Assembly: GCA_001687465.1 (NCBI GenBank)
Contig: LVLI01000198.1
Location: 1-64,000, forward strand
Direction of reading: 5' to 3'
DNA: 64,000 nt
Source of the DNA: Halocafeteria seosinensis
Lineage: Eukaryota
Of this stretch, positions 9,249 through 30,245 are shown in pieces; position 1 is the stretch's first letter, and each line of letters opens with the position of its first letter. The position numbers and the translations under genes are program-made. Under the pieces are notes generated by a model. It was not told the origin of the DNA and did not search any database. It was given only the letters and a program-made list of their open reading frames with translations.

Positions 9249-10037
9249 GCTATCAAGTCTTGAAAGAATAATACAATTCGAGCTCTCGCTCTATCTACGT
9301 TGACATTGATGAATCGATAAACGAACTGACTGAGGGCATTGAGGGATGGGTATCGTTCGTGGGCGAAAAGAAAAGAAGAAGAAGAAAAAATAAAAGGAGC
9401 GCGCATCGCTGTAGCATCCCATGCCGCAGGATAGCGAAGGCTGCGATGGGATTTGCAGCGCTCCCCTCTCGATTTAAGCAAACTTTTCCGCGTAGACTTG
9501 ACAAACTGGTCGCCAAAAATCATGGTGTATTACAAGCTGCTGCCAGGGCAACAGAAAAGACTTGTACTATTTCGCTTGAATTTTTCCTTGAGACCGCGAC
9601 TAGAGTTTAGTACTAGACTCCATGTGGCGGGTTCTATGGAGTTACAAACCGTTTGACTACGGTAGGTTCAGGAAGAGGTTGTAAATATCAGGACACAACT
9701 TCTCATGTGCAATGTCTATTCGTGTCGTCGGTGGTAGGTAGTAACCAGACTAGGATTGTAAGGTAGGGTTCTTAGATGTTGGCGTCGTGTGTACTGTGGT
9801 AACTACGGGTTGTACTGAATAAAAAGAAAGAGTGGCCCATACAACCGGAATGAGTGGCCGGGTGGTCTAAACTTGAGAACATCCATTCCTTGGTGGATTG
9901 ATATAATCGCGCTCTCAATTCTACTCCTACAACACGTATTATCGGTACCAATAGATGGAGTATAAGTGAACATGACCGCCTGGCCTTCATCATGCATGGA
10001 AGCATTCCCCTCGCCCTTGAAGAAGTAGCAGGAGGAG

Positions 10038-11902
10038 ATGTCCTCGTGGTCATGTAAGTTTGGTCTCCCCCAGTCCTCAGGTAGCTATCCCTCATTCTGG
10101 TTTTCCATGCTGTGCAGCACCGAGGCGTTCAGGGCCATCATCAGCTGCAGCTAGAGGAGGTGGTGGGAATCGGCTGCAACAAGGTAAAGACTGGCCAGCC
10201 TTCAGAATGTGATGTGATATGATGGAATGGAATGGAATGTTTTTGTTTTGCACAGCTGCTGAAAGGACCCTTTCGGTAGAGGATGCATTGACCTTGTTGA
10301 GACACAAAGGGTTTGATCCCAGTGAGTACAGTGAACTCGTCAATGCTGCTGCTAACGAGGAGGGCGTGATTGACGTCCCGGGGTTGTTGGAATCCTCCGA
10401 GGAGACTGTCCTCACCAAGGTGTTGGCAGATGGTAAGCGATAAAATTGCGCGTGTCCTGATACGTCATGCCGACGAGGAAGCGTGAAATCTGCATGCGCG
10501 CAACAGATCTGGTCATCTCGGATTGGAATTCCTTCACGGCAGACATTCAAGACATCTATGAACATGTAGCCTCCCTCCCGAATTCAGGCAAGAATGCCGA
10601 CTACATCCCCATTTTGGCGGAACAAGATGAAAACGCTTTTACGGTGGCGGTGTGTACTGTGGATGGCCAGAAGTTCTCCTACGGCAATACTGACTCGACC
10701 CACTGCTTCAGTATACAAGCAGGCATCAAGCCCTGGATCTATGCAGCCGCTGTCGAACAGCATGGCTTGAAAAAGGTCCACAGGCATACAGGAATCGAAC
10801 CGAGTGGGCTCGCATTCAACGAAGTTTCACTAAATGCATCGAAACGGCCACATAACCCAATGATAAATGCTGGAGCGATTGCAACTGGGTCCTTGGTACG
10901 CCCCGATCTCGACATGGCTGGGAGATTCCGCTTCTTTAGGAAGCTTCTAACTGATGTTGTTGGTGGAGAGAAAATCGGATTCAGTCAACCCACGTACTTG
11001 TGCGAACAAGAAACAGCCTGGCGGAACAATGCGCTCATGTACTACATGGACAGTGCTGGTATCTTCCCCGAGGATGCAGATCCTCGACAAGCCCTTGACT
11101 TTTACTTCCAGATGTGCTCCATTGAGGTAAATCCTCAAATGGCTGCAAATGCGGCAGCAACACTAGCCACTGGTGGAATTTCGCCTCTGACTGGGAAAAG
11201 GTGCTTCTCCCCTTCCACGGCTAAATCTTGTCTGACGTTGATGTTTAGCTGCGGGATGAATGACTATTCCGGAGAATGGTGCACTAAGATAGGATTGCCT
11301 GCGAAATCAGGAGTAGGCGGAATAGTCTATGTTGTGATACCACACGTTATGGGGATTGCCGTTTATTCTCCGCCAGTAGATGCTCACGGCAACAGTGTAC
11401 GCGCTGTCGAATTCTTCAAACGCTTACTGTCGGAACATCGACTGGGTATTTTTGACCAAGTGGTTTCTGGCATGCAGTCAATGGATATACGACAGAGCAT
11501 GAAGCAGTCTAGGCCAACTCGATCACGGAGCTTATTCGGAGAAATTCCATCAAATTCCGATCGGAAGCCGATGTGTCACTCCACCAAGAGATCCTCGACT
11601 GATGAAGCTAACCCTCGCAGTCCTCTCTGTTTGGACCGAAATTGCTTATCTCAGCTCAATGATTCAGGATCATCGCCTGTTGACAGGTATGAACGCCAGA
11701 AAGGCTTTGTTGGGAAGACAAGCGCGGTGGATGAAGCATGCGCCTCCGGAATGATTTTGGAGAGATGGAAGAACGTGCTTCGGAGAATGGGACGATTAAA
11801 GCGGAATCTACACATGATCCGCGAGTGGTGTCGGCATACGTTTCGTGCTGATATTGACTGGTTTGCTTGTGAAAATCGCATTAATAGACGACCTAGATTA
11901 CG
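10038..11902 (+). CDS. GLS: Two-domain glutaminase-like gene, 5' half (glutaminase domain 1); exons 10038-10053, 10118-10183, 10256-10432, 10507-~11829; interrupted by an insertion
   Basis: Motifs ADYIPILA, VCTVDGQ, TGIEPSG, PHNPMINAGAI, FYFQMCSIEV, GLPAKSGVGG and GNSVR. Three phase-1 introns of 64-74 nt. The 3' boundary is uncertain. Confidence 0.8.
11893..11902 (+). repeat. Left direct repeat CTAGATTACG (TSD/att-core candidate)
   Basis: Exact match to 16321-16330; read as L-D-Y in the open frame at both sites. Confidence 0.75.
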
Positions 11903-12651
11903 AGGAATGGTGTCGGCTGCGGCAACAAGCTGTCACATTGGAGATGGGCGTCGCCCAACTGTCATGGAAAAGCACGCTGCTTGACTACGGACGCCACAAC
12001 ACGTGTTTCCGCTTGAGTGACGTACAGAGGAACGGCTTGCTGGACTTCCGTTTCCGCCACGTTGTGGCGCCGCAATTGAACGCGCAGCAATTCGTGCGTC
12101 CGCCGGCCTGACATCTGTTCTTCGCTCGGAAAGCCTTCCATCCAGTCAGTCAACGCGTACGGTTCGGTGTCGTCCAACGTTTCGGCTATGGGAGGGTTCC
12201 CGTCCTGGAATCGAGATGGGCACTTTACTCTTTGTTCCTTTGGTCTGCACCGAGGCGGGCAAAGAGGCCCGCTATGTGTTTCAACTACACACGGCGACCG
12301 AGACGAACACCTACCGCGTACCGATGGGCAGAAGCGAGCTGACCGATACCGTCTCCGAATGGCTCGACGCTTGTTACGGGGGCTGTGGATTGGGTCTAGG
12401 AGAAGAGGCCAGTTTCCTCGGCATGCTCAAGTCCCCCCATGCGCGCAAAGTTTCTGTCTGCGTTTCCACTCGCGACCGTGTTTTTTCTCGACCAGTCTGT
12501 CCTCCACACGCGTCCGCATGCGTGCCAAAGCACGTTCCTGCTGGACGGTGCGCATGGTGGGAGATGGGTCCTGCAAGAATCTTATGTCCGTAAAACGGAC
12601 GTTCCGCATCTTGCTTTGTTTTATCTGATTTGCGGTCTGCACGGCCATTGA
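11893..12651 (+). CDS. Element gene A, 3' portion (orphan); predicted exons 11893-12093, 12150-12449, 12496-12651
   Basis: Frame open from the left repeat (LDYEEWCRLRQQ...). Phase-0 intron GTGCGT...CTGAC...TCAG (56 nt) and a weaker 46-nt intron link three ORFs. Confidence 0.4.
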
Positions 12652-12732
12652 TTGCGGATCAACCAGCCAGCCGCGATTCTCGTTGGCGGGGGTGGCCGGT
12701 GTCGTTCGGGTTTTCTTTTATCGCATAACGTT

Positions 12733-14207
12733 TTAAATGATGTGCACCACGCATACATCACTTGGAATACATGCGCCGTTGCGGTCCATCACCGTAGCCG
12801 CTTCCTGCATGGGAACCATGGGCGACGTTTCCGCGAATGTCGTCACATACCGTGTCCACGGGACAGGAGATTGTTCCGTCTGGTAGCATTCGTCGCTCAT
12901 ACGTTCCCACTGCGATTGATGATACGCCACGTTGCCCATCGTCGGCCATCGTTCCTCTTGGTACGGAATGGGCGGACGACGATACGCCGAGAGGCGTCTT
13001 CGTCGGACGGACAAACCCGGAGCGTCGCAGTATCGTCGTCGTGCCGGAGTCCCGCTGGTCTATCGCGTGCGGACGAAGCCAGCCACTTTCCGTTTCAGGA
13101 CAATTATCGAAAACTGACGCGACATAACACGCGAAGCGTCAGCAAACATGTCCCATTTCCGCATTCGTTGCATCGATCGTACATTTCCTCGGACGTCTTC
13201 TTTTCGCGGTCGATCAATTGGCGGTTTCACGTGTACCGCAGCGCACGGTGGAAACGGCACCATGCCCAGTTCGCCGGGCACGAACATGCGGAACCAGCCC
13301 CCCGACGAAAAAGCCCTCGCAAACGGAGGCGCGTTTCATTGCCGTAAGCCGAGTACTATACGTATCCTCTTGTGGAGGAAGAAAGACGGACCGCTTACTC
13401 GCACGGCACGATGCGCCTCTCCGTCCGGTTGTACAGTCGCCGTCTCAGGCGTTTTAGACGGCAAGAAAACAGGAAAACTCCGGAAAGGAGGACGGAGAGG
13501 GCGCTGCACATGAAACCGAGCAACTGCTGGCTTAGCGGTAAAATTCGGCCCTGCAGTGTGGCGTACAAAGTCCATCCCCACAGACAAGAGGCAACGAGAA
13601 ATATGTCCGCTGCCCATAAAAAAAGCATCGCCATCAAATGGCTGTGCGGTAGTGTTGTTCCCCACGTGCACGTAGCGTAAAGATAAAAAATTGATGAGGC
13701 AGGTGTACGGAAGCCGAAAGGTTCTTTGCTCCATAAAGTGTAGACAAGGTACACGTTTTCCCAAAACACGACCACAGAACTAGCCAGAATCCATGCAAAA
13801 AGCGATTGTTTCATTGTTTCTTCGAGATCTTGCGTGGGGGGTGCCAGACGGGTGTACAACCGCAATCCCATAGCTCCGGCGTATATGATGGTAGGCGAGA
13901 AAACAACACCTCCCGCAGCTATTCCCCACAAAAGTCCCGCTGAAACGCACAACACTGCGTAGACCGCCAAGAGAAGCCACTGAAAAGGCTTGGCGATGAT
14001 GTTCGCACACGTCTTTAGAAACGACGACGAGCCCCGCGATGATTGCAGCCCCACGAGAGAAAGGGGCTCTTTTTGGGCCAAGTCGGTCAGATGGGCAAAA
14101 AATCGCCGGTAGGTCTCTCCATGGAACGGATTCGGAGGAGGCTCTCGGGCCACGTAAAGACCGTTGTCTGAGGTTACAGGGACGATTCCCACTGTCCCTC
14201 CGTCCAT
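12733..14207 (-). CDS. Element gene B: orphan multi-pass membrane protein; main exon 14207-13399, possible further exons 13355-13247, 13199-13119, 13059-12733
   Basis: ~270-aa exon with about 5-6 hydrophobic segments (e.g. WLLLAVYAVLCVSAGLLWGIAAGGVVF, LFAWILASSVVVFW). A GTAAGC donor overlaps the apparent stop. Three phase-consistent introns of 43, 47 and 59 nt reach the ORF ending at 12733. Confidence 0.5.
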
Positions 14208-14369
14208 AATGAGGAAGTCACCGAGTGGATTCGCAAACAAACGTGCTGTTTTTCTTCTGTGGAACAAAAGTGAGCGTGTCGTCAAAAGGCAGGAAGAAAG
14301 ACGAGATAAAGCAGTGGAAGACCACGCTCTCGCGAACTGGTACAGCCTGGAAATCCCTTTCTCCCCGAA

Positions 14370-15017
14370 ATGAGCGACCGTTTCATCCCCCAGGCGGCGT
14401 CCACGGCGATTGAGCTCATGGAATCGCTTCGCTCGCGCTACAAGCCGCCCAAGACAGGCAAGGCCAAGAAAACGGTGCGGGAGCGTCTGCGGGCCCAGCA
14501 GCCGAACAACGACCACGACAAGATGGAGACGGCGTTGGCCGAACTGCGGCAGTTGCGCGACAGCACTCATTACCGGTACTTTTCCAATCTGGAGTGGCAG
14601 CGCCGCATGACCATTGGCACTAAACGCGGCAAACACGATCGGCGGATGCGTCGATCGTTTGGTATCACGGACGAAGAGTTTGAGACGTACGTCAAAGAAT
14701 TTCAGACCCTCTTGCGCAAGCATTCGGTCACACCCCCTGACGCTGTCTCGCTACCGTCGTCCGCCCAGGGCGCTGACGAGACAGCGTTGCAGCACCCGTC
14801 GGACATCTCGCTGCAGTCGTTCCGGGACGTCCTGTGCGAAGACGGATTGTCCGGGGGAGCAGCGGGAAGCGAAAGATCAAATTGCTCGCGTCCGTCAACG
14901 GCGGCAACGAAATCTCCATTTCGTATCCCGCGATGCAACTTCCTTCAAAACTCCCCCTGTCGGTCGGCTATAACATCGTGGCCATGTCCCTGTACAACCA
15001 TATCAGCTGCCAGCTGA
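14370..15017 (+). CDS. Element orphan ORF, basic/helical N-terminus (possibly the first exon of gene A)
   Basis: 215-aa ORF with GC-rich codons and a K/R-rich N-terminal half (RYKPPKTGKAKKTVRERLR). Its tail overlaps the next ORF in another frame. Confidence 0.5.
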   Translation: MSDRFIPQAASTAIELMESLRSRYKPPKTGKAKKTVRERLRAQQPNNDHDKMETALAELRQLRDSTHYRYFSNLEWQRRMTIGTKRGKHDRRMRRSFGITDEEFETYVKEFQTLLRKHSVTPPDAVSLPSSAQGADETALQHPSDISLQSFRDVLCEDGLSGGAAGSERSNCSRPSTAATKSPFRIPRCNFLQNSPCRSAITSWPCPCTTISAAS

Positions 15018-16320
15018 ACGGTACCAGTTACGCCTACGATTTCCCATCCGCGCAGGTTTCGACGTCGGGCCCATCGAGCATTTCGTACAAAATGGCGCCC
15101 CACATGAATGCCCCCGATGATGATGATGATGATAACGTGTCCCCGGACACGCTGACATTGAAAGGAATGGCGCCCCATGCGTCGTTGTCGGACAGCGCGT
15201 CGATCATCCTCCCGGGCCACAGCTCCGGAACGCAGTTCGAAGCAACGCTGGAGAAAAGTTTCAAAACATTTCCCATCGTCACAGTGGACGGGTTGATGTT
15301 GGACGACCCACGCGTGTACCCACCCTCCGGCTTGTCAAACAAGGGGCAATACTGCTTCTTCTCGGCACAGTCGAGCGATGGAACCTCGGTCTTTTCGATC
15401 TATTACGACGCCGCCAAGAAGAGCTTCATCCTGCAAGCCAACGGAACGGCAAAGCAGCTCAAAGAGCACATCTTTACAGAACTGATGGTGGGGGCGCCCT
15501 CGGCGTTCAACGTGGAGTGGGAATCCCAGCAAGGCGGGTCTCTCTTCCACGTCAAGACGCACCGCGGAGGACCATCGCAGCGATTGACGTTCCCGAACGT
15601 GGCCGCGCCGTCCGCGCCCATCCAGCGCCTCGTTCTGGGGAATGGAGCGAACGCGAAGCACGCTGGACTCGGAATGCGCGTGTTCGGGCGATTCGGCGTG
15701 GCGTTTCCCGGCCAAGCGTTTTACATGTTTTTGCCGAAAACCATCCGGAACAACCGCCACCACAAATCGTTCACGACCAACAACATGTACAAGTGGAACA
15801 AAGGAGAGCTTCACATGTCATCACCCGCCGCGACGCTCCAGTACACCATTGTGCGCTCTGTGTCGTCCAAGGGGGGAGAAGGAGGCGGGGGTGCGTCGCA
15901 GCAGTTCCCGCGCGGAATGCACGGGATTACCCGACCGTCTGCGCGGGCGATGCTGACGGACCCGTCCGGGTCGTCGTCGTCGAGCCACCCCCAAAAACCG
16001 CCGTCGTCGCCCCGGGTGCCGTCGATCGCGATCCCCCAAAAGTGTATGGTTTTTTCTCGGAGAAATTGATCGGCCACAAGCCATGGGTCTCGTTTCCGTT
16101 GCAGATCCGTGCCAACAAAGCGGCGACGTCGGACGTATCGATGCGCTGCCTGGACCGGTGCGACGTTTGTGAAGATTGTCGGACTCGTTCGTTTTGTGTT
16201 TAGCGTGCACGATTCGCGTTGGATTGTACCAAAGCACTCCAAAGAAAAAGTCTCGGCGCGCAAGGGAAGGCTGAGTGTGATACAAATATTGAAGGCGGCG
16301 GTGCGTTCCAATGGATACGG
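14834..16320 (+). CDS. Element gene A, 5'/central portion: orphan, apparently beta-rich protein; predicted exons ~14834-16043, 16105-16157, 16204-16320
   Basis: 411-aa ORF. Introns GTATGG...TTGCAG (61 nt) and GTGCGA...TTTAG (46 nt) carry the frame to the right repeat (...FQWIR-LDY). The start is uncertain. Confidence 0.5.
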
Positions 16321-16330
16321 CTAGATTACG
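16321..16330 (+). repeat. Right direct repeat CTAGATTACG
   Basis: Exact match to 11893-11902. Confidence 0.75.
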
Positions 16331-18375
16331 TTTATAGGTTGCTGGCCGAATGCGGTGTGGGCCCGGTGGATGAGAAACACATGCCCGTGCTGCATTACAC
16401 TCTGAAAAATGTACGTGCTCAGAGCCAGGACATCCTCGAAAAGTTATCGAATGCTGCAAAGAACAGAATCAGAGGAATTGCTACCAAAGGGACTTCAAAG
16501 AAACTAGCAGCAGCCGATTTCGACAGCATCTTGGAAGATTTGATTCCGAAAGCACCGGATGCATTTAACTTTGGATTGGATTTACAAGCCCTCGTATCAA
16601 ATGTTCAAGATTCCTTATTGCGTCGAAGTTGGTATTACCCGTCGGCTACGGAGAGAATCTGGCAAAACACCCGTTTCAAAACGGACTCTGCTCCGGATTT
16701 GACCAAGCGATGTTCGGGTTTCGGAAAAGGCGAATATGTTTACATCCCGTTCCTTTTCGAGGGAGATAGCTCCGGTATTCTTCCCCGCGCATTCTTGAAT
16801 AAAATGGCGTTTCCTTGGTTTAAGTCTTTCTGTGGGGAGATGAGGTCGATTGCCTCAGTAATTAGGAAGGATCTGACCGGAGGTAAACTTCCTGCCGAGG
16901 AAGTGCCCGCTGGGATATCGCGCAAGGAGTCAACAGCTTCTCAGGACACAAGGGCGACTGAAGAGCGAGCACCTAACTGCAAGGGAGCAGTGTACACCGG
17001 AATTCCGATTGAAGAGCTGATAAATGCTGATCCGCAAAACTTTGGAGTCGCCTTTTGTACCATAGACGGACAGCAACACAGCTTTGGTGAATCTCGAATG
17101 GATTTCCCCCTTATGTCTGCTGTACAACCACTTCTTTACAGTCTGGCTCTGAAGGAAGTCGGAGTCAAGGAGACTCAGGCATGGACCGGGACAGAGCCCA
17201 CTAGTACAGATCCGTCATCGTTCTCATTGCGTGAGAACGTCCCTGAGCCACAGTGCTCCGATAAAGGAGTAGAACAACCTTCGCGGATTCCATTCAACCC
17301 GTTTATGGACACAGGGGCCTTGCAAACGTGTGCTCTGATTGGGGGAGCCCAACGGAGCAAGCAGTTTCCTGATGCTGGAAGTCGATTCCTGCATTTGATA
17401 AAGCACATTGGTGCTCTTTGTGGAAACCGACGCGTAGGCTACAACAATAGCGTGTTTTTAGCCCAAAAAGAGAAACGGCTCCAGACGCTGGCGGTCTCAC
17501 ATTTTATGAAAGGCATGGGTGCTTATCCGCGTGACACAGATCCGACGGACAACGCCCATCTACTATTTCAAGCACAAAGCGTCGAACTGAACTGCGAAAA
17601 ACTTTCGATAATCGCCGCTTCCCTGGCGAACTTGGGAGTGTGTCCCACAACAGGCCAACAAGTTCTTGGCAATGAAGAACTGATAAGCCTCTTTTCATTG
17701 ATGTATAACTGTGGCCTTAACCAGTACACTGGCACTTGGACTTTCAACGTCGGTTTACCAGCTACCACTGGTGTTTCTGGTGCATGCATGGTGATAATCC
17801 CCAACATAATGGGCATTGCGATCTACTCTCCGGTACTCAACGAATGGGAAATACCTCCTGCGGCCTTGAAGTTTTGCGAGAGTTTAACGAGCAGGTATAG
17901 GATTAACATTTTTGATCAGTTAGTTTACCGTAATGAGGAGTTAGACATTCGCTCAGTCGAGGAGGAGCATAACGAAGACTTTTCATCTCTGTCAGAGACC
18001 CAGAAGTCTACTCTATTGTTTTTTGAATTGTGTACTTCGGCGAATTCTGGTTCGATAGAAAAAGTGAGACAAGCAATGGAAGCGGGCGTGGACATTAATA
18101 GATGGGACTATGACCGTCGGACAGCGTTACACATTGCAGCTTGCAGTAGCCATGTGGAGATTTCTCAATTGCTAATCAGAGAAGGTGCAAATATCTTGAC
18201 TCGAGATCGGTGGGGAAGCACTCCATTCGATGAAGCTATGCAACATGGTTCAACAGAGTTGATCGAACTTTTTGAGCAGGAGATGGTGCGCCAGAATATC
18301 TCCTCCAAAGGCAGCTTGGCTAGGGGTTTAGCAGGCTCAGGTTCCGCTGACAGGACTGGGGTGTATGGCCGATGA
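16321..18375 (+). CDS. GLS: Two-domain glutaminase-like gene, 3' half (degenerate glutaminase domain 2 plus ankyrin repeats)
   Basis: Motifs FGVAFCTIDGQ, GTEPT, PFNPFMDTGAL, GLPATTGVSG and IPNIMGIAIYSP. Ankyrin motifs DYDRRTALHIAAC and DRWGSTPFDEA as in kidney-type GLS. The ORF-track start at 16219 is a TTG, not an ATG. Confidence 0.8.
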   Translation, partial: LDYVYRLLAECGVGPVDEKHMPVLHYTLKNVRAQSQDILEKLSNAAKNRIRGIATKGTSKKLAAADFDSILEDLIPKAPDAFNFGLDLQALVSNVQDSLLRRSWYYPSATERIWQNTRFKTDSAPDLTKRCSGFGKGEYVYIPFLFEGDSSGILPRAFLNKMAFPWFKSFCGEMRSIASVIRKDLTGGKLPAEEVPAGISRKESTASQDTRATEERAPNCKGAVYTGIPIEELINADPQNFGVAFCTIDGQQHSFGESRMDFPLMSAVQPLLYSLALKEVGVKETQAWTGTEPTSTDPSSFSLRENVPEPQCSDKGVEQPSRIPFNPFMDTGALQTCALIGGAQRSKQFPDAGSRFLHLIKHIGALCGNRRVGYNNSVFLAQKEKRLQTLAVSHFMKGMGAYPRDTDPTDNAHLLFQAQSVELNCEKLSIIAASLANLGVCPTTGQQVLGNEELISLFSLMYNCGLNQYTGTWTFNVGLPATTGVSGACMVIIPNIMGIAIYSPVLNEWEIPPAALKFCESLTSRYRINIFDQLVYRNEELDIRSVEEEHNEDFSSLSETQKSTLLFFELCTSANSGSIEKVRQAMEAGVDINRWDYDRRTALHIAACSSHVEISQLLIREGANILTRDRWGSTPFDEAMQHGSTELIELFEQEMVRQNISSKGSLARGLAGSGSADRTGVYGR

Positions 18376-18871
18376 TTCGGTGTCAGTGTGGTCGCAAGTT
18401 CCTTTAGGGCGAGGACACCATTTACCGATAACTCTCCGCCAGTAGTTGCTCACGGTAACAGACAGCGAACGCGCGGTGCGTCTCCGCAACATCCGGCACA
18501 TTGAAACTGGGTCGTGTTGGGGAGACCTAGGCGTAGGCGCAGTGCTACCATGTATGTACGCGGCGTCGGTTAGTGTAAATCGTTTCCTTGGTGCTGTTGG
18601 TGGTGTGTACGAACTCTCCCCTTGCACAACAAAAACGGAAGCGTCTCGTCCTGTGCTATGGAAAAACACACGAAGGCGAGAGATGTCAACTGAGATGGTA
18701 GACTTGATATTCCCTTTCTGTGCGTGCCTTAACTGAACGCTATGCTGACAACTTATCTATGTAATTGACCAGTATTGAATCACACGACGTATACTACCAC
18801 TACTACCCTCACGCCACGCGGAGCGCAATCTTCCTGACTGCTGACTGACACCGACACGAAATCTGTGGGTT

Positions 18872-18923
18872 CACAGACAGAGACAGACAGACAGACAGAC
18901 ACACACACACACACACACACACA
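18872..18923. repeat. (CAGA)n(CA)n microsatellite
   Basis: Directly visible tandem repeat. Confidence 0.95.
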
Positions 18924-19090
18924 TGGAAAGCCTAACCTACTGACATTAGTAGTAGATTTGATAATGCTACCCTGATTGTGTAGATCATCTATCTATCCGT
19001 TGTTGTTGTATGCGCCTACTCACTTTCCCAACGTCCGAAAGATCTTCCGCCATCTACAGTATATTCGCGTTGGAACTTTTACTCTCTACA

Positions 19091-21847
19091 ATGTCATACC
19101 GACGACGGTCAGGCGAAGTCTCCGAGCCCTCTTCATGGCTGTCCAAAGCTGCTGTGCTCTCTGGGAGCTCGGTGGTGGCTGCTATCGTGTATTATTACGG
19201 TCGGAAAGCGGCTCTGAAGTGGGCTCTGGAGGCTGTCGATACTCAAGACAAGCCTAATCCTCTTGCCGTATTGGTGCTCAAGTACCTCTCGCCGCGGGAC
19301 CCTAAGCTGTACGATATGCAGGAGTATCTCCCTCGTCTGCCATTGCCGTCGGTGGAAGAATCAATGAGGAAATACCTGGAGAGTATCCGGCCGCTTGCTT
19401 CGGAAGACCAATTCCGCCACACCAAACAGCTCGTAAATGAATTTGTGGGCTCCAAGGAAGCCCAGGAGCTTCAGGCAATCCTCCAAGAGAAGCACCGAAC
19501 CGAACCCAACTGGGTAGCGGAGTGGTGGATGCGCTTTGCGTACTTGCAGGGCAGAGATCCGCTCCCGATTAATGTCAGCTTTGCTGGATTCGATACCGTA
19601 TTCCAGCCGCCACCCACCAAGAACCAGGTAAGCTACGTGTCGATGCAGTTTAGCTTCCTCCTTCACTCAATTACCAACCGACGACTACGCGTGGTGCCAC
19701 GTTTGCAGGCCCTTCGAGCAACTGGGCTGATTGTCGGGACCATGGACTTTTATCGACGAGTTGTCATTGACAAAGATATACCGTGTTTGCGCATGAGTAC
19801 GTGGAAGGATATTCCTCAGCCACAAAGGCCGCCGGTGATTATTCATCTTCATATACTGCTTGTAATTGTCGTTGAATTTGCAGATGGATTCGTACCAGTT
19901 GATATGGATGGATATAGATCGCTCTTTGGAACAAGTCGCTTGCCTGGTACAACCTGTGACTCCATCCAAACGTTTTTGCCCAAGAAGGGAGAAGCGGCGC
20001 ACATTGTTGTAATCTACGGTTCAGCCATGTACCAAGTGCAAGTCCAAGACGAAGGTGGGGTCAAATTTATCATATTGACGTTTCTCCTTCGCTGTGCGTT
20101 CTTCATCGCCTGTAAATGCAATCCAGACGGTCACTTTACGCCGTTCGACGAGATGTACAGCACCATTTCGGAAATCATGAATCAAGTAGAAAACACTGGG
20201 CTATGGGTCGACCCTTCGGTTCCAACTCTAACCACGGGTATGTTTTGTCCTCTTTCCACGAGCGACCACTATCGGGTACGGACGTTTTTTCGCAGAAAAC
20301 CGCACTACATGGGCAAATGCCCGGGAAATCCTTGCCATGCGGCCTCAAAATTCACAAAATTTGGATGTCATCAATAAGGCGTTGTTCGTGGTATCTCTTC
20401 ATGAGGAAGAAGCACCAGAAGATCTTGACTGGATAGGAAGGTAAGAATGCAGTCAAGCTTTCCAGTGGAATGCTTAATTTGTACAAGCAACCATCTGCGC
20501 TCATGCAACAGTAAAATGTGGAGAGGCGACGGCAAGAGGATTTGGTATGATAAAAGTATAAATCTATTATGCTTTGCAAACGGTCGCTCCACCCAAGTAA
20601 TTGAACACTCCTTCGCGGATGCTCCCATCGCGAGTCATCTGATTGAGGGGCTCTATCTTCACGAACAGAAGAAACTTCTCGAGGTGTATAAAAAGTGGGA
20701 ACATAGTAACGGGCGCCCGGCACCGCCAAGCACTCCGTATTACCGTTTACGATGGCATTGGAGTCAGACACTGGACAGCTTCGTGAATACTGCTCTCAAG
20801 AGTTACTACCAGTTAACCTCCCGAGTAGCTTCAAGGTGTGTTCAGTGATAAATGAAAGGTGGGATTCCAACGGGCTGTCATGTTTTAGCGGTTAATTCAG
20901 GTCTTACATAAATGATGCCTACGGAAAAGAAGATATCAAGTCTTACGGCCATGTACGTCAGTTGGTGGGGAAATACGTTTTCCACAACCCTACAAAGGGC
21001 GGTATGTTGTTTACGACGAAATGCAGCCTCCCGATGCGTTCATCCAAGCAGTCCTCCAATTGACATCTCTCCGCTTCCATGGACAAGCTGTACTTACCTA
21101 TGAGTCAGGTAAGAGGGCAGCATTGCTGTCCCGATGTGAGTAGATACACCTACATTTTGTGGTGCGCAGCGTCCACACGTGCCTTTTACTTAGGCAGAAC
21201 GGAAACCATACGGTCGGCAACCAATGAAGCCACTGAATTTGCAAGATCAATGCTTGACAGCTCACTTTCGCAAGTACGTATGCTGCCGGAAACGGACAAG
21301 ATACCCAGTACGTAACATGGAACTCCCTACAGCAAAAACGCCGTGAGCTTCTTGCTAAAGCTACGAAGAAGCATCGCCAAATCACTATGGAGGCCATGAA
21401 GGGGCGAGGTGTAGACAGACACTTGATGGGCCTCAAGCTGGCCGCGGTTACATCCGGACGGGATATTCCAAAAGTGTTCGAGGATCCAGCCTACACGCAG
21501 CCCTACCGTTTGAGCACCAGCCAGACTCCCTTGATTCAAGAAAACCTGGAGTGGCTAAACACCCCAGAACTGGTTAGTACTGTTTATAGCTGCATTTCAC
21601 ATTTGCCACTGAAAACCTTTGCATTTTGGCCGTGCAGTGCGGGGCGGGTGGTGTTTTTGGCCCAACGGCGGACCCCGGAATAGGCTGCAGCTACCACGTA
21701 ATGAAGGACCGGCTATACTTCCATATGAGCGCACGAAGCTCGGCGCCTGAGAAAGACGCACAACAGTTCAGAGAGTCTTTAATGGAATCACTTCGCGACG
21801 TAGCTTCCCTCTTCAAAGAAAGTGTAGCAACAGGAACGAAGTTGTAA
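19091..21847 (+). CDS. Carnitine O-acyltransferase (CPT1-like), multi-exon
   Basis: Motifs LPRLPLPSVEESMRKYLESIRPL, NWVAEWW, WYDKS, catalytic EHSFADAP, GRTETIRS, GRGVDRHL and LSTSQTP. N-terminal hydrophobic segment. The first five introns were checked for phase. Confidence 0.9.
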
Positions 21848-21859
21848 GGAGGAATTGTC

Positions 21860-23954
21860 CTACGAATTTCTCCATGTAGGTACCGCCTTACCGGTTCCTC
21901 GTCCCCCAAACGTGAAATCTAGTCCTCGAGAGTCTGCAGCCCTACTTTGCATCATGACGGGTCGCTCATGAGCACTATGTTGACGCGATTCAGCATTTTT
22001 CTCTTCCCTACTGTTACGCTCGCGATTCTTCCATGCAGTAGTTGGTGCACGCGCGCGATTTGGATCAGAATGAACTCTCTTCACCTTGAATAGCCCTGCG
22101 CCTTTGACATACGCTGTGTTATCCACCTGCTCCTCTACTTCAGAGTCGTTATCTTCGACTTCACTGTCGAACTTCTTCAAGATCATGCCTCTCTGGTCTC
22201 TCCTCGGGTCCAGGCTTTGTTCCTGACGGCGATGCGCTTCTTCCTGAGACTCGAGCTTCAGTTTACCCCTGGAGTGAGCGCTGCTAATTTGAGACTGAAT
22301 TCTCGACCGAATGCGCCTGCATAAACATAAACGGAATCAGTCTTGTGCGATGAGCATTGTTGTGGACGCCGCGTCGACATACTCTTTCTGTTCTGGTGTC
22401 AAATCTTCCCGTTCATTGCTCTGGTTATTCAATGTGCCCTCAATCCGTTTGAATTTCTGTTCCTCGGCTTTTTGAGCCGCACGATATTGGGCCAAAGCGG
22501 CTTTCTGAGCAGCACGCCGCCTTGCTTCTTCCTGCTCTTTGGCGATTTCCTTCTTGGTTTTTTCTTCATACTGTTTATGCTCTTCTTCTTGGCGCTGGCG
22601 GGCCTTTTCGGCTTTCCAGCGTGCAACTTCAGCCTTTTGCATGGCCGTTTTGTTCTTGAGTTTGGCTAGTTCCTTGCGACGCTCCTCTTCCTTATTAGAG
22701 GTCACCTCTTCGACTTCTCCCTGTAACTCTTCCTCCTTCTTTCTTCGCTGAACCTGTTTCCATTCATAGATTATGTGACGCTTTTTATCCAACAGAGTGC
22801 AGTATACAAGGAACCAGTCCAAGTGGCGATTGCACTCGTCCAAAGAACGATCAGGAATACGCAGGTGCACCTCCTCCGCAATTTTCTTTCTTTGTTCTTT
22901 CGTTGGTTCAGGAGTTTTCTCGGAGTTGGGATCATTGTCAGAGGAACCATGTAGAGCTTGCATCAGTGAGGGCTGATATTTCTGCACAACCGCAAGGAAC
23001 ACTTCATGCTCATCATCTCTCCAGTTGCCGGTTTCGCCCCCGTTCCTCTGGATTCGTCGGTTCACTTTCTCAACTCGTGACCGAAAGTCGGCTTCCTCAG
23101 TTTCCTCTACCTGTTGAGCTTGTTCATTTCCTTGCTTCAGCGGGGGTCCAACGTTCCCTTGATTAGCAGGAGGTGGCGGTCGAGACGGCTTGGTGGAATG
23201 CTGCTGGGGCAGGGCCTCTCCATTCGTTGCCCGTCGATGTATTAATTCTTCCTCGTCTTCTTCGACTTTGGTATTGAGCTCCCGGAGCTCATTGTTTAAA
23301 GTCTGTTCCTCGTTTGATATCTTGTCGAAGTCTTTCCGTGCTTCATTGCGTACTTTGTCGAGACTTTCCTGCAGTCAAAAAGGAAAAATAATAACAAACC
23401 GAATGACGAAAGCGAAAAATGCACAGTCCAGTATATCCAATTCCAATCCCAATTCCAATACATGTCAGAAAGCTTGCACATCTTCTAAATTCACTTACCG
23501 CAATTCGTTGTAAAGTCTTCTTAACTCGAGGGACATATCCTTCTTCCGCCGCTCGTTCATCGAACACGTACATCTTTAGCGCATAGCAGTCAGCCTGAAG
23601 CAAAGAGGCAGTATTCTCAATACTTAGAAAGGATGAGGTTACGTAAAAAGAGTTAAATGTACGTACTTTAATGCTCTTAAGCTTCTGAAAAAGCTCTCTA
23701 GTGTATCTTTCCCTGGCCGATTCAAGGCTTTTTTGATACTTTTCACATTCAGAGACGATCTGAGGCTCCAATGTGCGCAGACTCCCGCTACTCTGAGAAG
23801 TAGAAGAGCCGCTAGAATAGGGTATTATCCTCGTTAGTTCCTCCATACAACGCCTTTCCTCCTTCCGTAACGACTCCTGGACCTCCAGATACTGCTGCGC
23901 ATTCTCCACATTCCCCTCCTTCCCAGAGTGTCGGTATCCATTGCGCCCCTCCAT
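21860..23954 (-). CDS. CCDC112-like coiled-coil protein, multi-exon
   Basis: GGETGNWRDDEHEVFL and ECNRHLDWFLVYCTLLDKKRHIIYEWK resemble the CCDC112 core, followed by a long E/K/R coiled coil. Confidence 0.6.
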
Positions 23955-24219
23955 GTTAGTGAGTACATGCAGCCAAGAACATAAGACTCACTCTAGGAGA
24001 CGCTTTTACAGCCATAGGCAATCCACAATCGAAATTTCAAACTATGCTGCGCACTCAGACTTCAACTTCAAATGTGCTGGATGAGAAGTCTACAATATAA
24101 CACAAATTGTTACACAATGTATAAGGATATACCATGGGTCTGATTTCTCATGTATACTTTGATTTTTCACACTTTTTCGAGCATGTATACAGGAAGAAAC
24201 TACTAGTTTACCAAACGCT

Positions 24220-25718
<1,499 letters not shown>

Positions 25719-26174
25719 ATTTCCGGAAACGAGGAACCTCGCCAGCACACTGACAAAAAAAAAAAGGGGATATGAAATTCGTCTCGGCGTAACAATGTTA
25801 ATTTATTGAGTTTTAACATGTTGTTGGTTCCAAGGAGCCCGTCCGGGCTTGGTTGAAGTTATCCGGGCTGGAACTGCATGCAACCAGCCAAGCCATTGTT
25901 AATGTATCTGCTGGACATGGGGATGGCGTGACGTCGAAAAATTGATACCAGTACTGGATTTATTGTGGCAGTGGCGTGACAGCAATAGTGAGGGAAAAGA
26001 GGGCGGATTAGAGCTGTATTCCTCCAGTGTCTGTGGACTGAGACTCCTGTTCTGGCCGAAGTAGGAATTTCATTCATTCAGCATGCACATGTTATGAATC
26101 AACTACCTGCTATCCATGTACGTGAAACGGTGGTATATCGCCCGTATTAACACAGAAAGGAAGCGCTTGGTGCA

Positions 26175-28194
26175 ATGAGTGGATGGCTGTACCAACTCAA
26201 ACACCTCGGGGCCGCAGTCATCACGCTAGCCAGTACGTATCACTAGACGCTATACCAGCAGTATTAACAGACAATGAGCTCATTTGAGTGTGTGGTGATA
26301 TATGTTACAGGTTGTGCCATTGGAGCTGGACTGGTGTCGTTACCGTTCGCGTTCCAGCACGCTGGACTTGTGGCGTCGACTGTCGTGCTGCTCTTGACCG
26401 CTGTATTGAACATCGGCTCCCTCTATCTAGTGACATGCGCGGGAGACATGACGAATGCTAAGAGCTACGGGCAGCTGGCTCTTGCGTACGGGCCGAAATG
26501 GAGGGTCGTTATGGAAGGGATTCTAGCGGTTGTACTGTTGGGTGTAACGATATCACTGGTACGTCTCGAAGGGCTCTTGGTTCTATTGTCGGGATTAGTC
26601 GATAGAAAGTTTCTTCTACAGCAAATCATTATTACGGATACTTTCCGTCAAATTATAGATACATTAGCAAACTATTCAGATGGTGAACGAAACCACATTG
26701 CGATTGGCTGCATGGGAGCATTCAACGTGCTAGTAATTATACCGCTGTCTTCTCTACGGAACATTACCTGGTTGAGTGCTAGTGGGTACGTACCGGTCTC
26801 TTTCTTGCTTTCCTGTCAAGGAAATCACGACTATATTTATGGCTGTTTGTCTTTTTTTTTTCCAGTGCGCTATCGGTGGGATCCTTCTTGTACCTGGTAT
26901 TTTGGTTGGTCATCCAAGGAAGTGAGCATGTTGAAAGCGATGACATTTCGAAGCGCTCCCGAACCCACACGGTTGGCTTTGACTTTTGGAGTATTATTGA
27001 TGTAGCTCCGATCATTGTATATTCACTTGGGTAAGTATGACTTTTTGTTTCATCATTTTGAGATGAGTTCGACAGGCAACGATCTGCGTTCGGTGCAGCT
27101 GTCAAGTCCAAGCGGTGGCACTTTATCACGAGTTACCGAAAGAATTCCGACGCCCCCCACGATTTTTAAAACTCGTTTGCGTACCGGCAACTATTTTATG
27201 CTTGATTTTGTACATATCTACGGGATCTCTTGGCATGTTTGCGGTGAACCAGAGTTCCCCGTTGAGTGGCGATATACTATCCGATTTGCCAGTGCATGAT
27301 GCCTCGGCAACGGTCGTTCAATTTGCTGTCGCAATTAGTTTGATTACTGTAAGCCCTGTCATTGTTTGGCCTATACGCGAAAGTATAATGGAAATTATTG
27401 AATCATGTCGTCACCATGACCGCACTGGGCGACACTCGAGTGATTCCGACGATATTCCCGAACCAGCGGACTGCCAACAGGCGAATGACGACGTCGCTTT
27501 AAATGGTTTGGATCATATACAATCTTCGCCTCTTCTGCGGCCATCATATGAGGCGGGTTCGGCTATGGCTGTCACTGCTTCTTTGAGAGACGACCATCCT
27601 ACGGAATTTGTAAAACGGCTACTAAAGGAAAGCATATTGGCTAGAGCGATCCTTTCTACGATCATTGTTGGAATAGCTTTCAGTGTTTCTGTTCTAGTGC
27701 ACAGTGTCACCACCGTGTTTCGTTTTGTGGGGGCAGTTGGAGCAAGTTTTCTTTTCTACGTTTACCCCGCCGGTGTGATTCTGCGAATGCAACACAATGT
27801 GGGTGTAAATCCTGAAGAGCAAGAGCTACTTTCCTCGAAAGCCGATTCTCAAGGTGACGAGAAGGATTCCTTGAACTCCCCTTACCATGGAGAAGACAGT
27901 GACGGGACCGAAGAGGTCTACAATCCGAAATCAACTCCTTACAGCGCTTATTCTGCTACGTCTACACCACAGGCAAACGGAAACGATCAAAACAATCCGG
28001 TAGAGTGCACCGATAATGGTGATAAGAGTATACACGACGTAGGGAACTCCTCGTGGCTTGCTGAAGACGCGCAACGAACTGATGTTGTAAAGCACTTAAG
28101 GTCATATAGTCTGTGTGCTATGAGCATCGCCGTTCTGGTACTTGGCGTAGTTGTTGGCGGCTTGTCTACTTATTCAGTCATCATCACAAGCTGA
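26175..28194 (+). CDS. Amino-acid transporter (AAAP/SLC38-like), multi-exon
   Basis: AIGAGLVSLPFAF, SYGQLA and many TM segments; first exon MSGWLYQLKHLGAAVITLA splices at GTACGT. Confidence 0.85.
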
Positions 28195-28610
28195 AAGTCC
28201 ATTTCGCTGGGAGTGATCCCTGCCGTCGTGACGCAAAGATGAATATGGTATAGTATGCGGCCAATGGAGAGACTGTTGCGGCGTACATGGCAACCCTATG
28301 ATCCATATGTCGACACATCCGATGCGCGCACCTACCGACGGAAGGTCCTGCAAGGTGTCCCACTAGCTATAGTAGAATCTAGTCTCAACAATTGATTCTG
28401 AAAACAACCAACAACCGCAAAGTAACATTCCCTGAACCGTCCTCTATCTACTGCCACCGTCGTCGTTGTGAAGTGAATAGTGTTGTGAAGCCGCGGTGAC
28501 TCCGTGGACCACGGTACTCTCTTGCAATGCATTTCCCGTCGATTTGTTTTAGTGTTACAGTGTTGAATGAGTGTATGGTGTCCCATGCGTTGGAACTGCG
28601 GACACAGAAA

Positions 28611-30245
28611 ATGGATTCTCTGCAGGCCATGTATGGCGATATAAGCGACCAGGAGGATGAGGAGGGCGATCAGTCGCAAGCTCAGGAAGGAAGTGATTTC
28701 GTCGTAGATGATTTAGACGTTGCAGCCGCGAATGCGGAAGCGTCACTGGAAGAGGAGGCGGCACTTTATACCGAAGATGAAAATACAATCGACGTGGACG
28801 AATACGTGGTGAAAGCACCATCGGACGCCCAGCAACACCCCGTGGCTCCCGATCTGTTGGCAGCGGCAGCAGCGGCTGCTCCAGATGAGACCACAACGGA
28901 ACTTAACGAAAGAAATCAGGAGTTAGACGATATACGAAGACAGGTGGAAGCGTACGAACGCAACAGGGAAGAGGAGGAAGAGGACGAAGACAAGGGAAGC
29001 GTGGAATCGTCCTCCTCGTCGAGTGTGGACTTGCACGAAACCAATAATAAGCGTAGCGTCGCTGTCGAAAATGAAGGTGATCATGACCAAGAGGAAGGAG
29101 CGGTAGAAGAAGATGATGATATACAGGAACTTTCGTCCAATGTGAAGGGCCACAAACCGCGCACAAAACATGAAATATTGGTAAGCATTGCTCATAAATT
29201 CAACCTAACTTTTATCTCGGTCATTGGTACATGTGTATGCTTCCACACGCAGCCGGATGAAAGAGAGGAAGAGCCTCTTCAGATTAGCCTGGAAAACATA
29301 AGTGAAGTTGTTCCAATTGGGCACGTGATGAATGTGAACAAGCAAGAGAAAGTAATCTTGGTCGAGGGAATCAAGGACTCCCAAGCGCTAGACGAGGGGT
29401 CCATATTATGTCTCAAAATCGAGAGCCCTGAAACAACTAGTGATATGAGACAATTTTTGCGTGTTCTTGGGGCTATCGATGAGGTGTTCGGCCCTGTTAA
29501 TAACCCGTTCTACATTATCCGCTTGCGCAGAGATCAGCTGGCTTCTGAAAAAAGCCCAGCATCCGCCAAAAAAGGCGATACACGCAATGTTCCATGGGCT
29601 TACGTTCAAGATGTGGAAAGTGCACAACCTATTTATGCGCTTCAGGATTATATGAAGTATGTGGACACTCGGTTTTGCTTGGTGAAAGGTAGTGATGCCT
29701 CAAACATGCATGATGAAGAACCAGCACCCGAAGAAATAGAATATAGTGACGATGAAGAAGAAGCAGAAGCACGTGCTCGTCTGCGAAATATGAAGAAGGG
29801 CAAGCAGTCTGCTGCAGATTTGAATGTCGAGAATGCGGAAGAGGCGATGGGCAATGTCAGCTCATCCAAAAAAGGAAATAGGCGGCACGTTAAACGATCG
29901 CGTAGCAAACATAATGGTGGGTATATGCCAGAAGTCGCAACCTCAAGCGTAGGCCAAGGAACTTATGGGTATCCTTTCTCGGTACCGGAAGGACTGCCTC
30001 AACCCCAACAAGCACAGATGATCCACCAAATGCAGATGCAGATGGCTCAAATGCAAGCACAGATGCATTACCAGCAACAACTCTTACAGTCGAACCAAGG
30101 TGCGAGTGTACCAGTACAGCAATCACTGTCTACCCAAGGCGGCACCAGTGGCAATTATGCGCCGGGAAGTTTTCATCTGTTCGCTAGCCCTCAGCCAAAT
30201 GGCACCAATCAAGGAAACAGTTCAGGAGCGAATAACGGGCAGTAG
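28611..30245 (+). CDS. NAF1: H/ACA RNP assembly factor NAF1
   Basis: Motifs ALDEGSILC, IDEVFGPVNNPFY and KGSDASNMHDEEPAPEEIEYSDDEEE; acidic N-terminus; likely in-frame intron 29181-29252. Confidence 0.9.
   Translation: MDSLQAMYGDISDQEDEEGDQSQAQEGSDFVVDDLDVAAANAEASLEEEAALYTEDENTIDVDEYVVKAPSDAQQHPVAPDLLAAAAAAAPDETTTELNERNQELDDIRRQVEAYERNREEEEEDEDKGSVESSSSSSVDLHETNNKRSVAVENEGDHDQEEGAVEEDDDIQELSSNVKGHKPRTKHEILVSIAHKFNLTFISVIGTCVCFHTQPDEREEEPLQISLENISEVVPIGHVMNVNKQEKVILVEGIKDSQALDEGSILCLKIESPETTSDMRQFLRVLGAIDEVFGPVNNPFYIIRLRRDQLASEKSPASAKKGDTRNVPWAYVQDVESAQPIYALQDYMKYVDTRFCLVKGSDASNMHDEEPAPEEIEYSDDEEEAEARARLRNMKKGKQSAADLNVENAEEAMGNVSSSKKGNRRHVKRSRSKHNGGYMPEVATSSVGQGTYGYPFSVPEGLPQPQQAQMIHQMQMQMAQMQAQMHYQQQLLQSNQGASVPVQQSLSTQGGTSGNYAPGSFHLFASPQPNGTNQGNSSGANNGQ

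What the first reader, a model, noticed from the sequence alone, without database searches (positions are those of the whole stretch)
12094..16203. Orphan genes of the insert carry their own very short spliceosomal introns (43-61 nt)
Seen: seven candidate GT-AG introns link otherwise fragmentary ORFs in phase. Plus strand: 12094-12149 (GTGCGT, CTGAC branch), 12450-12495, 16044-16104, 16158-16203. Minus strand: 13398-13356 (GTAAGC), 13246-13200, 13118-13060. They are shorter than most host introns here (64-75 nt). Inference: the element is transcribed in a nucleus and came from a different genomic context (an intron-bearing nuclear virus/plasmid or another eukaryote). Some donors are weak and individual calls may be wrong.
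Basis: partly seen in the sequence, partly recalled or inferred. Interest (0 to 1): 0.7.

Follow-up and report, generated by a model that had tools for sequence, protein, structure and literature searches.

The report
Orphan insert; tiny introns unsupported
A 4.3-kb GC-rich stretch of unknown genes splits a protist's glutaminase gene, and none of the seven tiny 'introns' proposed in it is cut out in transcript assemblies that do lose the host's own introns, so most are likely chance GT-AG pairs bridging frameshifts in decaying foreign DNA.

Summary
All seven GT..AG pairs lie where stated (43-61 nt) and link open frames, but the intron claim fails its tests. Three contig sets that skip 18 host introns cross six candidates uncut and begin inside the seventh. 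Phase linkage is no evidence: an intron-free ORF given random frameshifts is 'rescued' by such pairs in 279-299 of 300 trials. Four of seven score below every host intron, none is a multiple of 3 long, and the insert's three clean ORFs need no intron. What is there: a GC-rich (57% vs 48%) insert of about 4.3 kb, with no second copy detected, between the two domains of a double glutaminase. It carries a 270-aa orphan membrane gene, two overlapping orphan ORFs and frameshifted remnants, with no homologue found, no terminal inverted repeat and no clean target-site duplication. Most likely it is foreign DNA captured at a chromosome break and now decaying. Real donor introns that this host cannot splice remain possible (about 25%): three candidates are T-rich, and the minus-strand test is weak.

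The parts
10506..11861 (+). Host double-glutaminase gene, 5' half (glutaminase domain 1; ORF runs on into the insert to TGA at 11984); catalytic Ser replaced by Ala (SIQAGIK)
   Evidence: Pfam Glutaminase 3.9e-95; about 60% identical to P0001/P0002 up to 11861; aligned to human KGA SCVK
10054..10506 (+). Three host introns (10054-10117, 10184-10255, 10433-10506) skipped in the same contigs that cross the insert uncut: internal positive control
11870..16225 (.). Foreign GC-rich insert, about 4.3 kb; left end between 11862 and about 11900, right end between about 16204 and 16275; no second copy detected
   Evidence: GC/CpG; orthologue alignment; one DNA-type contig at flat depth, nothing else laid at 80% likeness
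11893..11902 (+). 10-bp direct repeat CTAGATTACG, left copy
   Evidence: a shared 10-mer occurs in 102 of up to 5000 random window pairs
16321..16330 (+). 10-bp direct repeat, right copy; lies about 45 nt inside host-homologous sequence, so not a clean target-site duplication
   Evidence: 20 of 8360 insert pieces match the orthologues as well as the sequence upstream of this copy
11905..12651 (+). Broken orphan gene remnant (frames change near 12097, perhaps 12200, and 12433-12444 at a C6 run)
   Evidence: no Pfam hit read through one break with X
12094..12149 (+). Candidate intron 1 (56 nt, GTGCGT..CAG): uncut in 3 of 3 transcript sets; score -1.9
12450..12495 (+). Candidate intron 2 (46 nt, GTTTCT..CAG): uncut in 3 of 3; T-rich; all three frames open across it; score 5.5
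12733..13394 (-). Minus-strand remnant downstream of the membrane gene; frame 13335-12733 is open but for one TAG (13062-13060); a 40-codon ORF (13226-13104) weakly matches the S14/S29 zinc-finger profile and the match runs into candidate 7
   Evidence: E 0.0019, 18.3 bits, below cut-off 27
13356..13398 (-). Candidate intron 5 (43 nt, GTAAGC..TAG): donor overlaps the TAA stop of the membrane ORF; uncut; score 7.1
13200..13246 (-). Candidate intron 6 (47 nt, GTGCGC..AAG): rank 476 of 664; uncut; score -8.9
13060..13118 (-). Candidate intron 7 (59 nt, GTCAGT..TAG): rank 191 of 664; uncut; score -3.3
13395..14207 (-).
   Evidence: atlas look-alikes are unnamed bacterial membrane proteins and one 'ABC-2 family transporter' cluster, 0.94-0.95 (lead only); no homologue
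13416..13500 (.). Perfect 11-bp inverted repeat; the 63-bp loop 13427-13489 is flipped in the DNA-type contig of run X1, while the transcript sets match the window
14370..15017 (+). Orphan ORF1 (215 codons; coding signal to about 14840, GC3 0.77)
   Evidence: no homologue
14777..16069 (+). Orphan ORF2 (coding signal from about 14850, GC3 0.75), in the -1 frame of ORF1; switch lies at a G5 run (14853-14857) with no plausible short intron; weak LamG/ConA-like lead
   Evidence: no homologue
16044..16104 (+). Candidate intron 3 (61 nt, GTATGG..CAG): the only clearly host-like one (score 12.7), but the transcript contigs begin inside it, and one -1 shift at the C5 run 16033-16037 reads through it
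16158..16203 (+). Candidate intron 4 (46 nt, GTGCGA..TAG): T-rich; uncut in 3 of 3; its TAG is the stop that separates ORF 15136-16203 from the host frame; score 7.6
16064..16071 (+). Place where the downstream transcript contigs of all three sets end (16071, 16064, 16071): possible start of a separate transcript of the 3' half (weak hint, one study)
16276..18375 (+). Host double-glutaminase gene, 3' half (glutaminase domain 2 plus ankyrin repeats), open frame

Best explanation
A GC-rich insert of about 4.3 kb sits in the linker of a double-glutaminase gene and is likely foreign DNA captured at a chromosome break, whose outer genes have likely decayed by small frameshifts, so that most of the seven 'introns' are likely chance GT-AG pairs that happen to bridge those shifts. 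Shown: the insert, its distinct composition, uninterrupted orthologues, and uncut transcript contigs at the candidate sites while host introns are removed. Inferred: capture by end-joining repair (no terminal inverted repeat, no clean duplication, no transposase or integrase found), frameshift decay (three frame changes fall at G5, C5 and C6 runs), a donor that is a eukaryote or a virus of eukaryotes, and functional loss of the host enzyme (split gene, catalytic Ser to Ala). The insert is likely read mainly as the 3' tail of the host transcript rather than as its own spliced genes.
For: Contigs of X2, X3 and X4 skip host introns 10054-10117, 10184-10255 and 10433-10506 yet run without a gap from 10506 to 13690, 14378 and 14389, and from 16071, 16064 and 16071 to 19624, 18974 and 18772. 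Frameshifted intron-free ORFs are rescued by 43-61-nt GT..AG pairs in 298, 299, 283 and 279 of 300 trials, and in 145-183 of 300 with GTR/YAG. Host donors are GTA in 17 of 18 and acceptors CAG in 18 of 18; the candidates have GTA in 2 of 7 and CAG in 3 of 7; 4 of 7 score under the lowest host intron (6.8). 0 of 7 lengths is a multiple of 3. The three clean ORFs carry no intron, and the ORF1/ORF2 frame change has no candidate of 40-65 nt above -4.0 and is present in RNA (X2 piece 14561-14943, no gap).
Against: Contigs drop rare forms and carry no strand; runs X2-X4 are not on record as RNA (I infer it from the skipped introns) and come from one study, two samples; 10 joints were not shown. For the three minus-strand candidates the RNA is probably antisense, so retention says little. 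Three candidates (12450, 16044, 16158) are T-rich (94th-99th percentile) and rank 24, 3 and 17 of 664. In dinucleotide shuffles only 28 and 29 of 200 reach the end of the region as the real sequence does. The left plus-strand intron model scores -0.09 per codon, as well as the held-out membrane ORF, and frameshift paths were optimised, so they are flattered. Codon scores inside the candidates do not separate them from host introns. No homologue was found to align through the sites. Both host halves and three insert ORFs are free of internal stops, which is not heavy decay.
Confidence: 0.6

Rival explanations
1. Several candidates are real introns of the donor genome (an intron-bearing nuclear virus or another eukaryote with about 45-nt, GTG-type introns) that this host's spliceosome, tuned to GTA...CAG introns of 59 nt or more, leaves in place; the genes were silenced on arrival by splicing incompatibility.
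For: All seven are in phase with open frames; three are T-rich at the 3' end; three share the donor GTGCG; exon 13199-13119 is in the locally best-scoring frame; intron-rich nuclear viruses exist (PMC12768974, passages).
Against: Two candidates are no better than random pairs (ranks 191 and 476 of 664); GTGCG occurs 14 times in the insert; about 2.5 kb of clean ORF has no intron and the ORF1/ORF2 break lacks one; the right-hand pair would fuse ORF2 to the host's 3' half, a join that could not predate the insertion unless by chance; mirusvirus introns peak near 80 bp; the minus-strand spliced model has wrong-frame codon scores.
Confidence: 0.25
2. The insert is a whole small mobile unit of 4428 bp bounded by the 10-bp repeat: a TIR-less Mutator-like element with a 10-bp target duplication, or a circle integrated by crossover at that core.
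For: Exact 10-bp repeat 4428 bp apart, in the same frame at both ends, chance about 2%; the layout (one divergent gap 14208-14369, one convergent gap 12652-12732) suits a circle; TIR-less MULEs recognised by GC shifts are reported in a bicosoecid genome (10.64898/2026.07.28.741278, section 8).
Against: The 16 codons upstream of the right copy match the host orthologues (20 of 8360 control pieces do as well) while those upstream of the left copy score 0; removing the unit leaves the host frames out of phase; longest terminal inverted match is 7 nt; no transposase, Rep or recombinase hit; no second copy and no empty-site or circle joint listed.
Confidence: 0.1
3. The insert is an assembly chimera or contaminant.
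For: No homologues; distinct composition; the 63-bp loop differs between the window and run X1.
Against: One independent-method DNA-type contig spans both junctions at flat depth, and spliced host transcripts run across the left junction in 3 of 3 sets and the right junction in 3 of 3.
Confidence: 0.02

Closest known systems
Foreign DNA captured at double-strand breaks / degraded endogenous viral fragments in protist genomes
   Same: Single, compositionally distinct block of orphan ORFs with broken outer genes and no defined ends, inside a host gene. The break-capture mechanism is recalled, not tested.
   Different: No viral hallmark gene was found, so a viral donor is not shown.
Endogenous virophages and Polinton-like viruses of Halocafeteria seosinensis (10.64898/2026.07.28.741278; passages and section 8 read)
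   Same: GC-shifted inserts, including fragments without core genes, in a genome of about 47% GC; the nearest orthologue of the host gene carries TSA prefix GECG, which I recall as that species (not confirmed).
   Different: Those elements are AT-rich (34-35% GC), about 24 kb, with TIRs and capsid/ATPase genes; this insert is GC-rich, 4.3 kb, with none.
Mirusviruses (PMC12768974; passages read) and punuivirus GEVE (10.64898/2026.10.09.758095; passages read)
   Different: Their introns peak near 80 bp (mirusviruses) or average 176 bp and resemble host introns (punuivirus), with transcript support; here the candidates are shorter than host introns, mostly unlike them, and uncut.
Mutator-like elements (MULEs), TIR-less and Pack-MULE forms
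   Same: 10-bp direct repeat near both ends; size of a few kb.
   Different: Right repeat copy lies inside host-homologous sequence; no TIR, transposase or second copy.

Membership tests
Spliceosomal (U2) introns active in this host | GT...AG ends | tested here: met
   7 of 7
Spliceosomal (U2) introns active in this host | Removed from the transcript | tested here: not met
   0 of 7 skipped in the dominant contigs of three transcript sets; six crossed uncut, one entered from inside. Rare or antisense forms are not excluded.
Spliceosomal (U2) introns active in this host | Host donor/acceptor consensus (GTA.GT ... CAG) | tested here: not met
   1 of 7 has both GTA and CAG; 4 of 7 score below all 18 host introns
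Spliceosomal (U2) introns active in this host | Branch-point motif near the acceptor | tested here: inconclusive
   No conserved branch motif emerged from 18 host introns; the cited CTGAC is 38 nt from the acceptor and is an ORF stop
Introns of an unknown donor genome | Homologous proteins skip the interval | not testable with these tools
   No homologue found for any insert ORF searched
Mutator-like element | 9-11-bp target-site duplication at the ends (recalled) | tested here: inconclusive
   10-bp repeat present, but the right copy is inside host-homologous sequence
Mutator-like element | Terminal inverted repeats | tested here: not met
   Longest exact inverted match between the end regions is 7 nt; TIR-less forms exist
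Mutator-like element | MULE DDE transposase | tested here: not met
   No such Pfam hit in the insert ORFs scanned
Polinton-like virus / virophage | Major capsid, penton, packaging ATPase genes and TIRs | tested here: not met
   No hit in Pfam, PHROGs or NCBIfam; the ORF2 fold was too poor to search (pLDDT 32), so a remote jelly-roll is not excluded
Mirusviricota | HK97 capsid, terminase, portal | tested here: inconclusive
   No hit, but no mirusvirus-specific profiles were available; a 4.3-kb fragment may lack them
Circular Rep-encoding or polyoma-like DNA virus | HUH Rep or SF3 helicase gene | tested here: not met
   No hit among the insert ORFs scanned
Active glutaminase (host domain 1) | Catalytic S-x-x-K motif (human Ser286/Lys289, PMC4929687 passages) | tested here: not met
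   Window reads A-G-I-K where P0001/P0002 read S-G-I-K and human KGA S-C-V-K

The most novel reading that the evidence does not exclude
The insert is most or all of an unknown small nuclear DNA element with an ambisense layout, a membrane-protein gene and a LamG-like gene, whose own ~45-nt GTG-type introns the new host cannot splice, so that splicing incompatibility silenced it on arrival while its end supplied a new promoter for half of the host gene it split.
Probability: 0.1. Interest if true: 0.65.

Novelty: new member of a known kind. Interest (0 to 1): 0.25.

Why it matters
As stated, the finding is probably not a real feature, and the case shows how easily short GT-AG pairs 'repair' frameshifted orphan ORFs in GC-rich DNA. 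What remains is a modest example of orphan foreign DNA splitting a protist gene into two transcribed halves, one with its catalytic serine lost. If the donor-intron reading were true it would give a natural test of splice-signal incompatibility as a barrier to gene transfer between eukaryotic genomes and point to an undescribed intron-bearing element.

Tried and rejected
No whole genome is held, so copy number rests on contigs only. No RNA holder was listed by record; X2-X4 are treated as transcript assemblies because they skip introns. Homologue searches, all blank: ORF2 (one search gave 1 hit at 4.6e-4, an RCC1-repeat protein matching 36 residues, rejected as repeat-inflated chance); ORF1; membrane ORF; left remnant; insert DNA against phages. 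Profile scans gave nothing above a curated cut-off for insert ORFs; sub-threshold hits (endonuclease VII E 0.58, EAST1 enterotoxin E 0.013-0.04 over about 19 residues, holin, CbiM) are treated as chance. Single-sequence folds were poor (pLDDT 32 and 49); the two Foldseek searches of the membrane model gave no match at E <= 0.001; the ORF2 model was not searched. Rfam gave one sub-threshold IRES_Bip match inside ORF2, antisense, rejected. The branch-point term of my splice model was uninformative and was dropped. One search trained on ORF1 in the wrong frame; only its host GC3 values are used, and one search replaces it. Codon scores inside the candidate introns did not discriminate. Flipping the other two inverted-repeat loops did not clearly improve coding scores. 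A 98-nt host-like intron 14687-14784 that could join ORF1 to ORF2 was rejected: the ORF1 frame keeps its coding signal there and RNA pieces cross it uncut. The circle-by-10-bp-repeat idea was my first reading and was weakened. Recalled resemblances (response-regulator start, MULE transposase motifs, slippery heptamers) were not borne out. Low or missing RNA cover between about 14400 and 16060 is not used as evidence. Earlier scan notes returned nothing. Paper searches showed no listing that describes this insert; bioRxiv supplements are closed and could list such elements.
Full report
Setting. The window is eukaryotic DNA of about 48% GC with one richer block near 12-16 kb. That block lies between two glutaminase domains: ORF 10461-11984 (Pfam Glutaminase, 3.9e-95) and ORF 16204-18375 (Glutaminase 2.9e-60 plus ankyrin repeats). 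Two uninterrupted orthologues of 1393 and 1369 aa exist (P0001, P0002). They align to the left half up to 11861 (about 60% identity) and to the right half from 16261-16276 (about 55%), with only about 20 residues between. So about 4.3 kb is inserted. Its GC is 0.567 and CpG o/e 1.27, against 0.478/0.474 and 0.89/0.91 in the flanks. P0001 carries TSA prefix GECG, which I recall as the bicosoecid Halocafeteria seosinensis; a paper search did not confirm this, and at 55-60% identity the window would be a relative or a paralogue.

The insert is real DNA. One contig of run X1, unspliced and so DNA-like, spans 9500-18554 at flat depth, and nothing else is laid on the insert even at 80% likeness. No second copy is detected, though a filter leaves some records out and no whole genome is held.

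The observation. All seven candidates start GT and end AG at the given places, 43-61 nt long, and removing them gives open frames of 215, 451 and 442 codons. The 18 host introns shown as skipped in contigs measure 59-81 nt (16 of 18), 130 and 377, so five candidates are shorter than any and two are within range.

Test 1, transcripts. Runs X2-X4 are not on record as RNA, but their contigs skip GT-AG introns, so I take them as transcript assemblies (three runs, two samples, one study). Single contigs skip the three host introns at 10054-10506 and then run with no gap from 10506 to 13690 (X2), 14378 (X3) and 14389 (X4), across candidates 12094, 12450, 13060, 13200 and 13356. Downstream contigs run with no gap from 16071, 16064 and 16071 to 19624, 18974 and 18772, across 16158-16203 and beginning inside 16044-16104. 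The uncut joint table lists no splice in the insert; one search left 10 joints unshown. Limits: contigs drop rare forms and carry no strand, and over the minus-strand candidates the RNA is probably host read-through from the other strand.

Test 2, splice signals. Host donors are GTA in 17 of 18 and acceptors CAG in 18 of 18; leave-one-out donor-plus-acceptor scores span 6.8-21.1. The candidates score 12.7 (16044), 7.6 (16158), 7.1 (13356), 5.5 (12450), -1.9 (12094), -3.3 (13060) and -8.9 (13200). Among 664 GT..AG pairs of 40-65 nt in the insert they rank 3, 17, 29, 24, 123, 191 and 476. A foreign donor could use other signals, so this test bears on splicing in this host only.

Test 3, is phase linkage surprising? 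In dinucleotide shuffles an open path to the end of the region is found in 28 of 200 (minus) and 29 of 200 (left plus) trials, so the real DNA is somewhat more linkable than random. But coding DNA with frameshifts is linkable almost always: 750-nt pieces of the insert's own intron-free ORFs with two or three random shifts were restored by 43-61-nt GT..AG pairs in 298, 299, 283 and 279 of 300 trials, and in 145-183 of 300 when GTR/YAG was required. None of the seven lengths is a multiple of three, as expected if they were picked to mend frame changes. Several 'splice sites' contain the stop codons of neighbouring ORFs: TAA of the membrane ORF in the donor at 13398, TAG at 16201-16203 and at 13062-13060, TGA in the cited CTGAC.

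What the insert encodes. Three ORFs are clean and intron-free. A 270-aa ORF on the minus strand (14207-13395) has five to seven hydrophobic helices; its atlas look-alikes are unnamed bacterial membrane proteins and one cluster named ABC-2 transporter (0.94-0.95), a lead only. Diverging from it across 162 bp are ORF1 (14370, GC3 0.77) and ORF2 (GC3 0.75); host halves have GC3 0.51 and 0.48. ORF2 gave a weak LamG/ConA-like lead (0.91-0.92, recognition below threshold). In held-out tests each true frame beat its five alternatives. The coding signal passes from ORF1 to ORF2 near 14840-14860, at a G5 run, where the best 40-65-nt intron candidate scores -4.0 and an X2 piece crosses without a gap. 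So at least one frame break in this insert is not an intron. A one-shift path through the right end falls at 16037, the end of a C5 run, and reads through 16044-16104 (3.3 against -0.1 for the intron model); the two-shift path on the left falls at 12097 and 12444, the latter beside a C6 run (-13.6 against -18.3); the spliced minus-strand model scores -0.25 per codon, a wrong-frame value. These paths are optimised and the insert has 27 runs of five or more, so this is suggestive, not proof. No homologue of any ORF searched was found.

Ends. A 10-bp repeat lies at 11893 and 16321, in the same frame at both, with a chance of about 2%. It suggested a target duplication or an integrated circle. Against that, the 16 codons before the right copy match the orthologues (20 of 8360 control pieces do as well) and those before the left copy do not; there is no terminal inverted repeat above 7 nt and no transposase, Rep or recombinase hit. 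The junctions cannot be fixed to the base. Capture during break repair, perhaps with a short templated copy at the left joint, is my inference from general knowledge.

Effect on the host gene. Both halves keep open frames and are covered by transcript contigs. The left contigs end inside the insert and the right ones begin within 8 nt of each other at 16064-16071, a weak hint of two separate transcripts. The left domain reads SIQAGIK where both orthologues read SIQSGIK and human kidney glutaminase LQSCVK; that serine is the catalytic nucleophile (PMC4929687, passages), so the enzyme is predicted to be inactive. The first in-frame ATG of the right half without splicing is at 16381, behind four short upstream ORFs in other frames and one in-frame ORF closed by the TAG at 16203.

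Comparison. Intron-bearing viral genes are known: mirusvirus introns peak near 80 bp (PMC12768974, passages) and those of punuivirus average 176 bp and resemble host introns (10.64898/2026.10.09.758095, passages). Endogenous virophages and PLVs of H. seosinensis are AT-rich, about 24 kb and mostly TIR-bounded, and TIR-less MULEs occur there (10.64898/2026.07.28.741278, passages and section 8); much of that genome's repeat content is unclassified (10.64898/2026.06.25.734631, passages). The insert meets the defining features of none. It works like a captured, partly decayed foreign fragment.

Verdict. Coordinates right, foreign origin supported, introns unsupported: about 60% that most are chance pairs over frameshifts, 25% that several are donor introns this host does not splice, 10% a repeat-bounded mobile unit. 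Interest 0.25.

Noticed in passing
window 10710-10730: Glutaminase domain 1 has Ala in place of the catalytic Ser (SIQAGIK vs SIQSGIK in both orthologues); domain 2 reads SAVQ in the window and both orthologues, so the split gene may have no active site left.
   Followed up: partly
window 12975-13040, 13416-13500, 14740-14787: Three perfect 11-bp inverted repeats with short spacers in the insert (0.15 expected, 0 of 300 shuffles; length cut-off chosen after seeing them; 4 of 300 at 10 bp; 1 in the other 59.6 kb). The loop 13427-13489 is flipped in run X1's contig, which would destroy the last membrane helix; transcript sets match the window. Template switching (PMC8604942, listing only) or a library artefact.
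   Followed up: partly
window 16064-16071: Transcript contigs of all three sets begin here and run into the 3' glutaminase half: possible new promoter at the insert's right end.
   Followed up: partly
window 13104-13226 (-): 40-codon ORF with C-x2-C-x12-C-x2-S-F-R matches Pfam Ribosomal_S14 at E 0.0019, below cut-off; the match extends past the proposed donor at 13118.
   Followed up: partly
window 16141-16203: Cys-rich end of ORF 15136-16203 (C-x3-C-x2-C-x2-C-x5-C) in the same frame as the host 3' half, separated from it by one TAG.
   Followed up: no
window 18504-18596: Short dispersed repeat, many diverged copies in DNA-type and transcript contigs, just downstream of the glutaminase gene; no Rfam match. 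Possibly a MITE- or SINE-like element.
   Followed up: no
window 23733-24369: Second repeated stretch with raised depth and an 8-nt deletion variant in run X1.
   Followed up: no
window host introns 10054-29252: Host introns end in CAG in 18 of 18, start GTA in 17 of 18, and show no obvious branch-point consensus.
   Followed up: partly
window 52981-55902 (-): 973-codon ORF with a weak hit to the bacterial HtrL_YibB family (E 0.0013, below cut-off).
   Followed up: no
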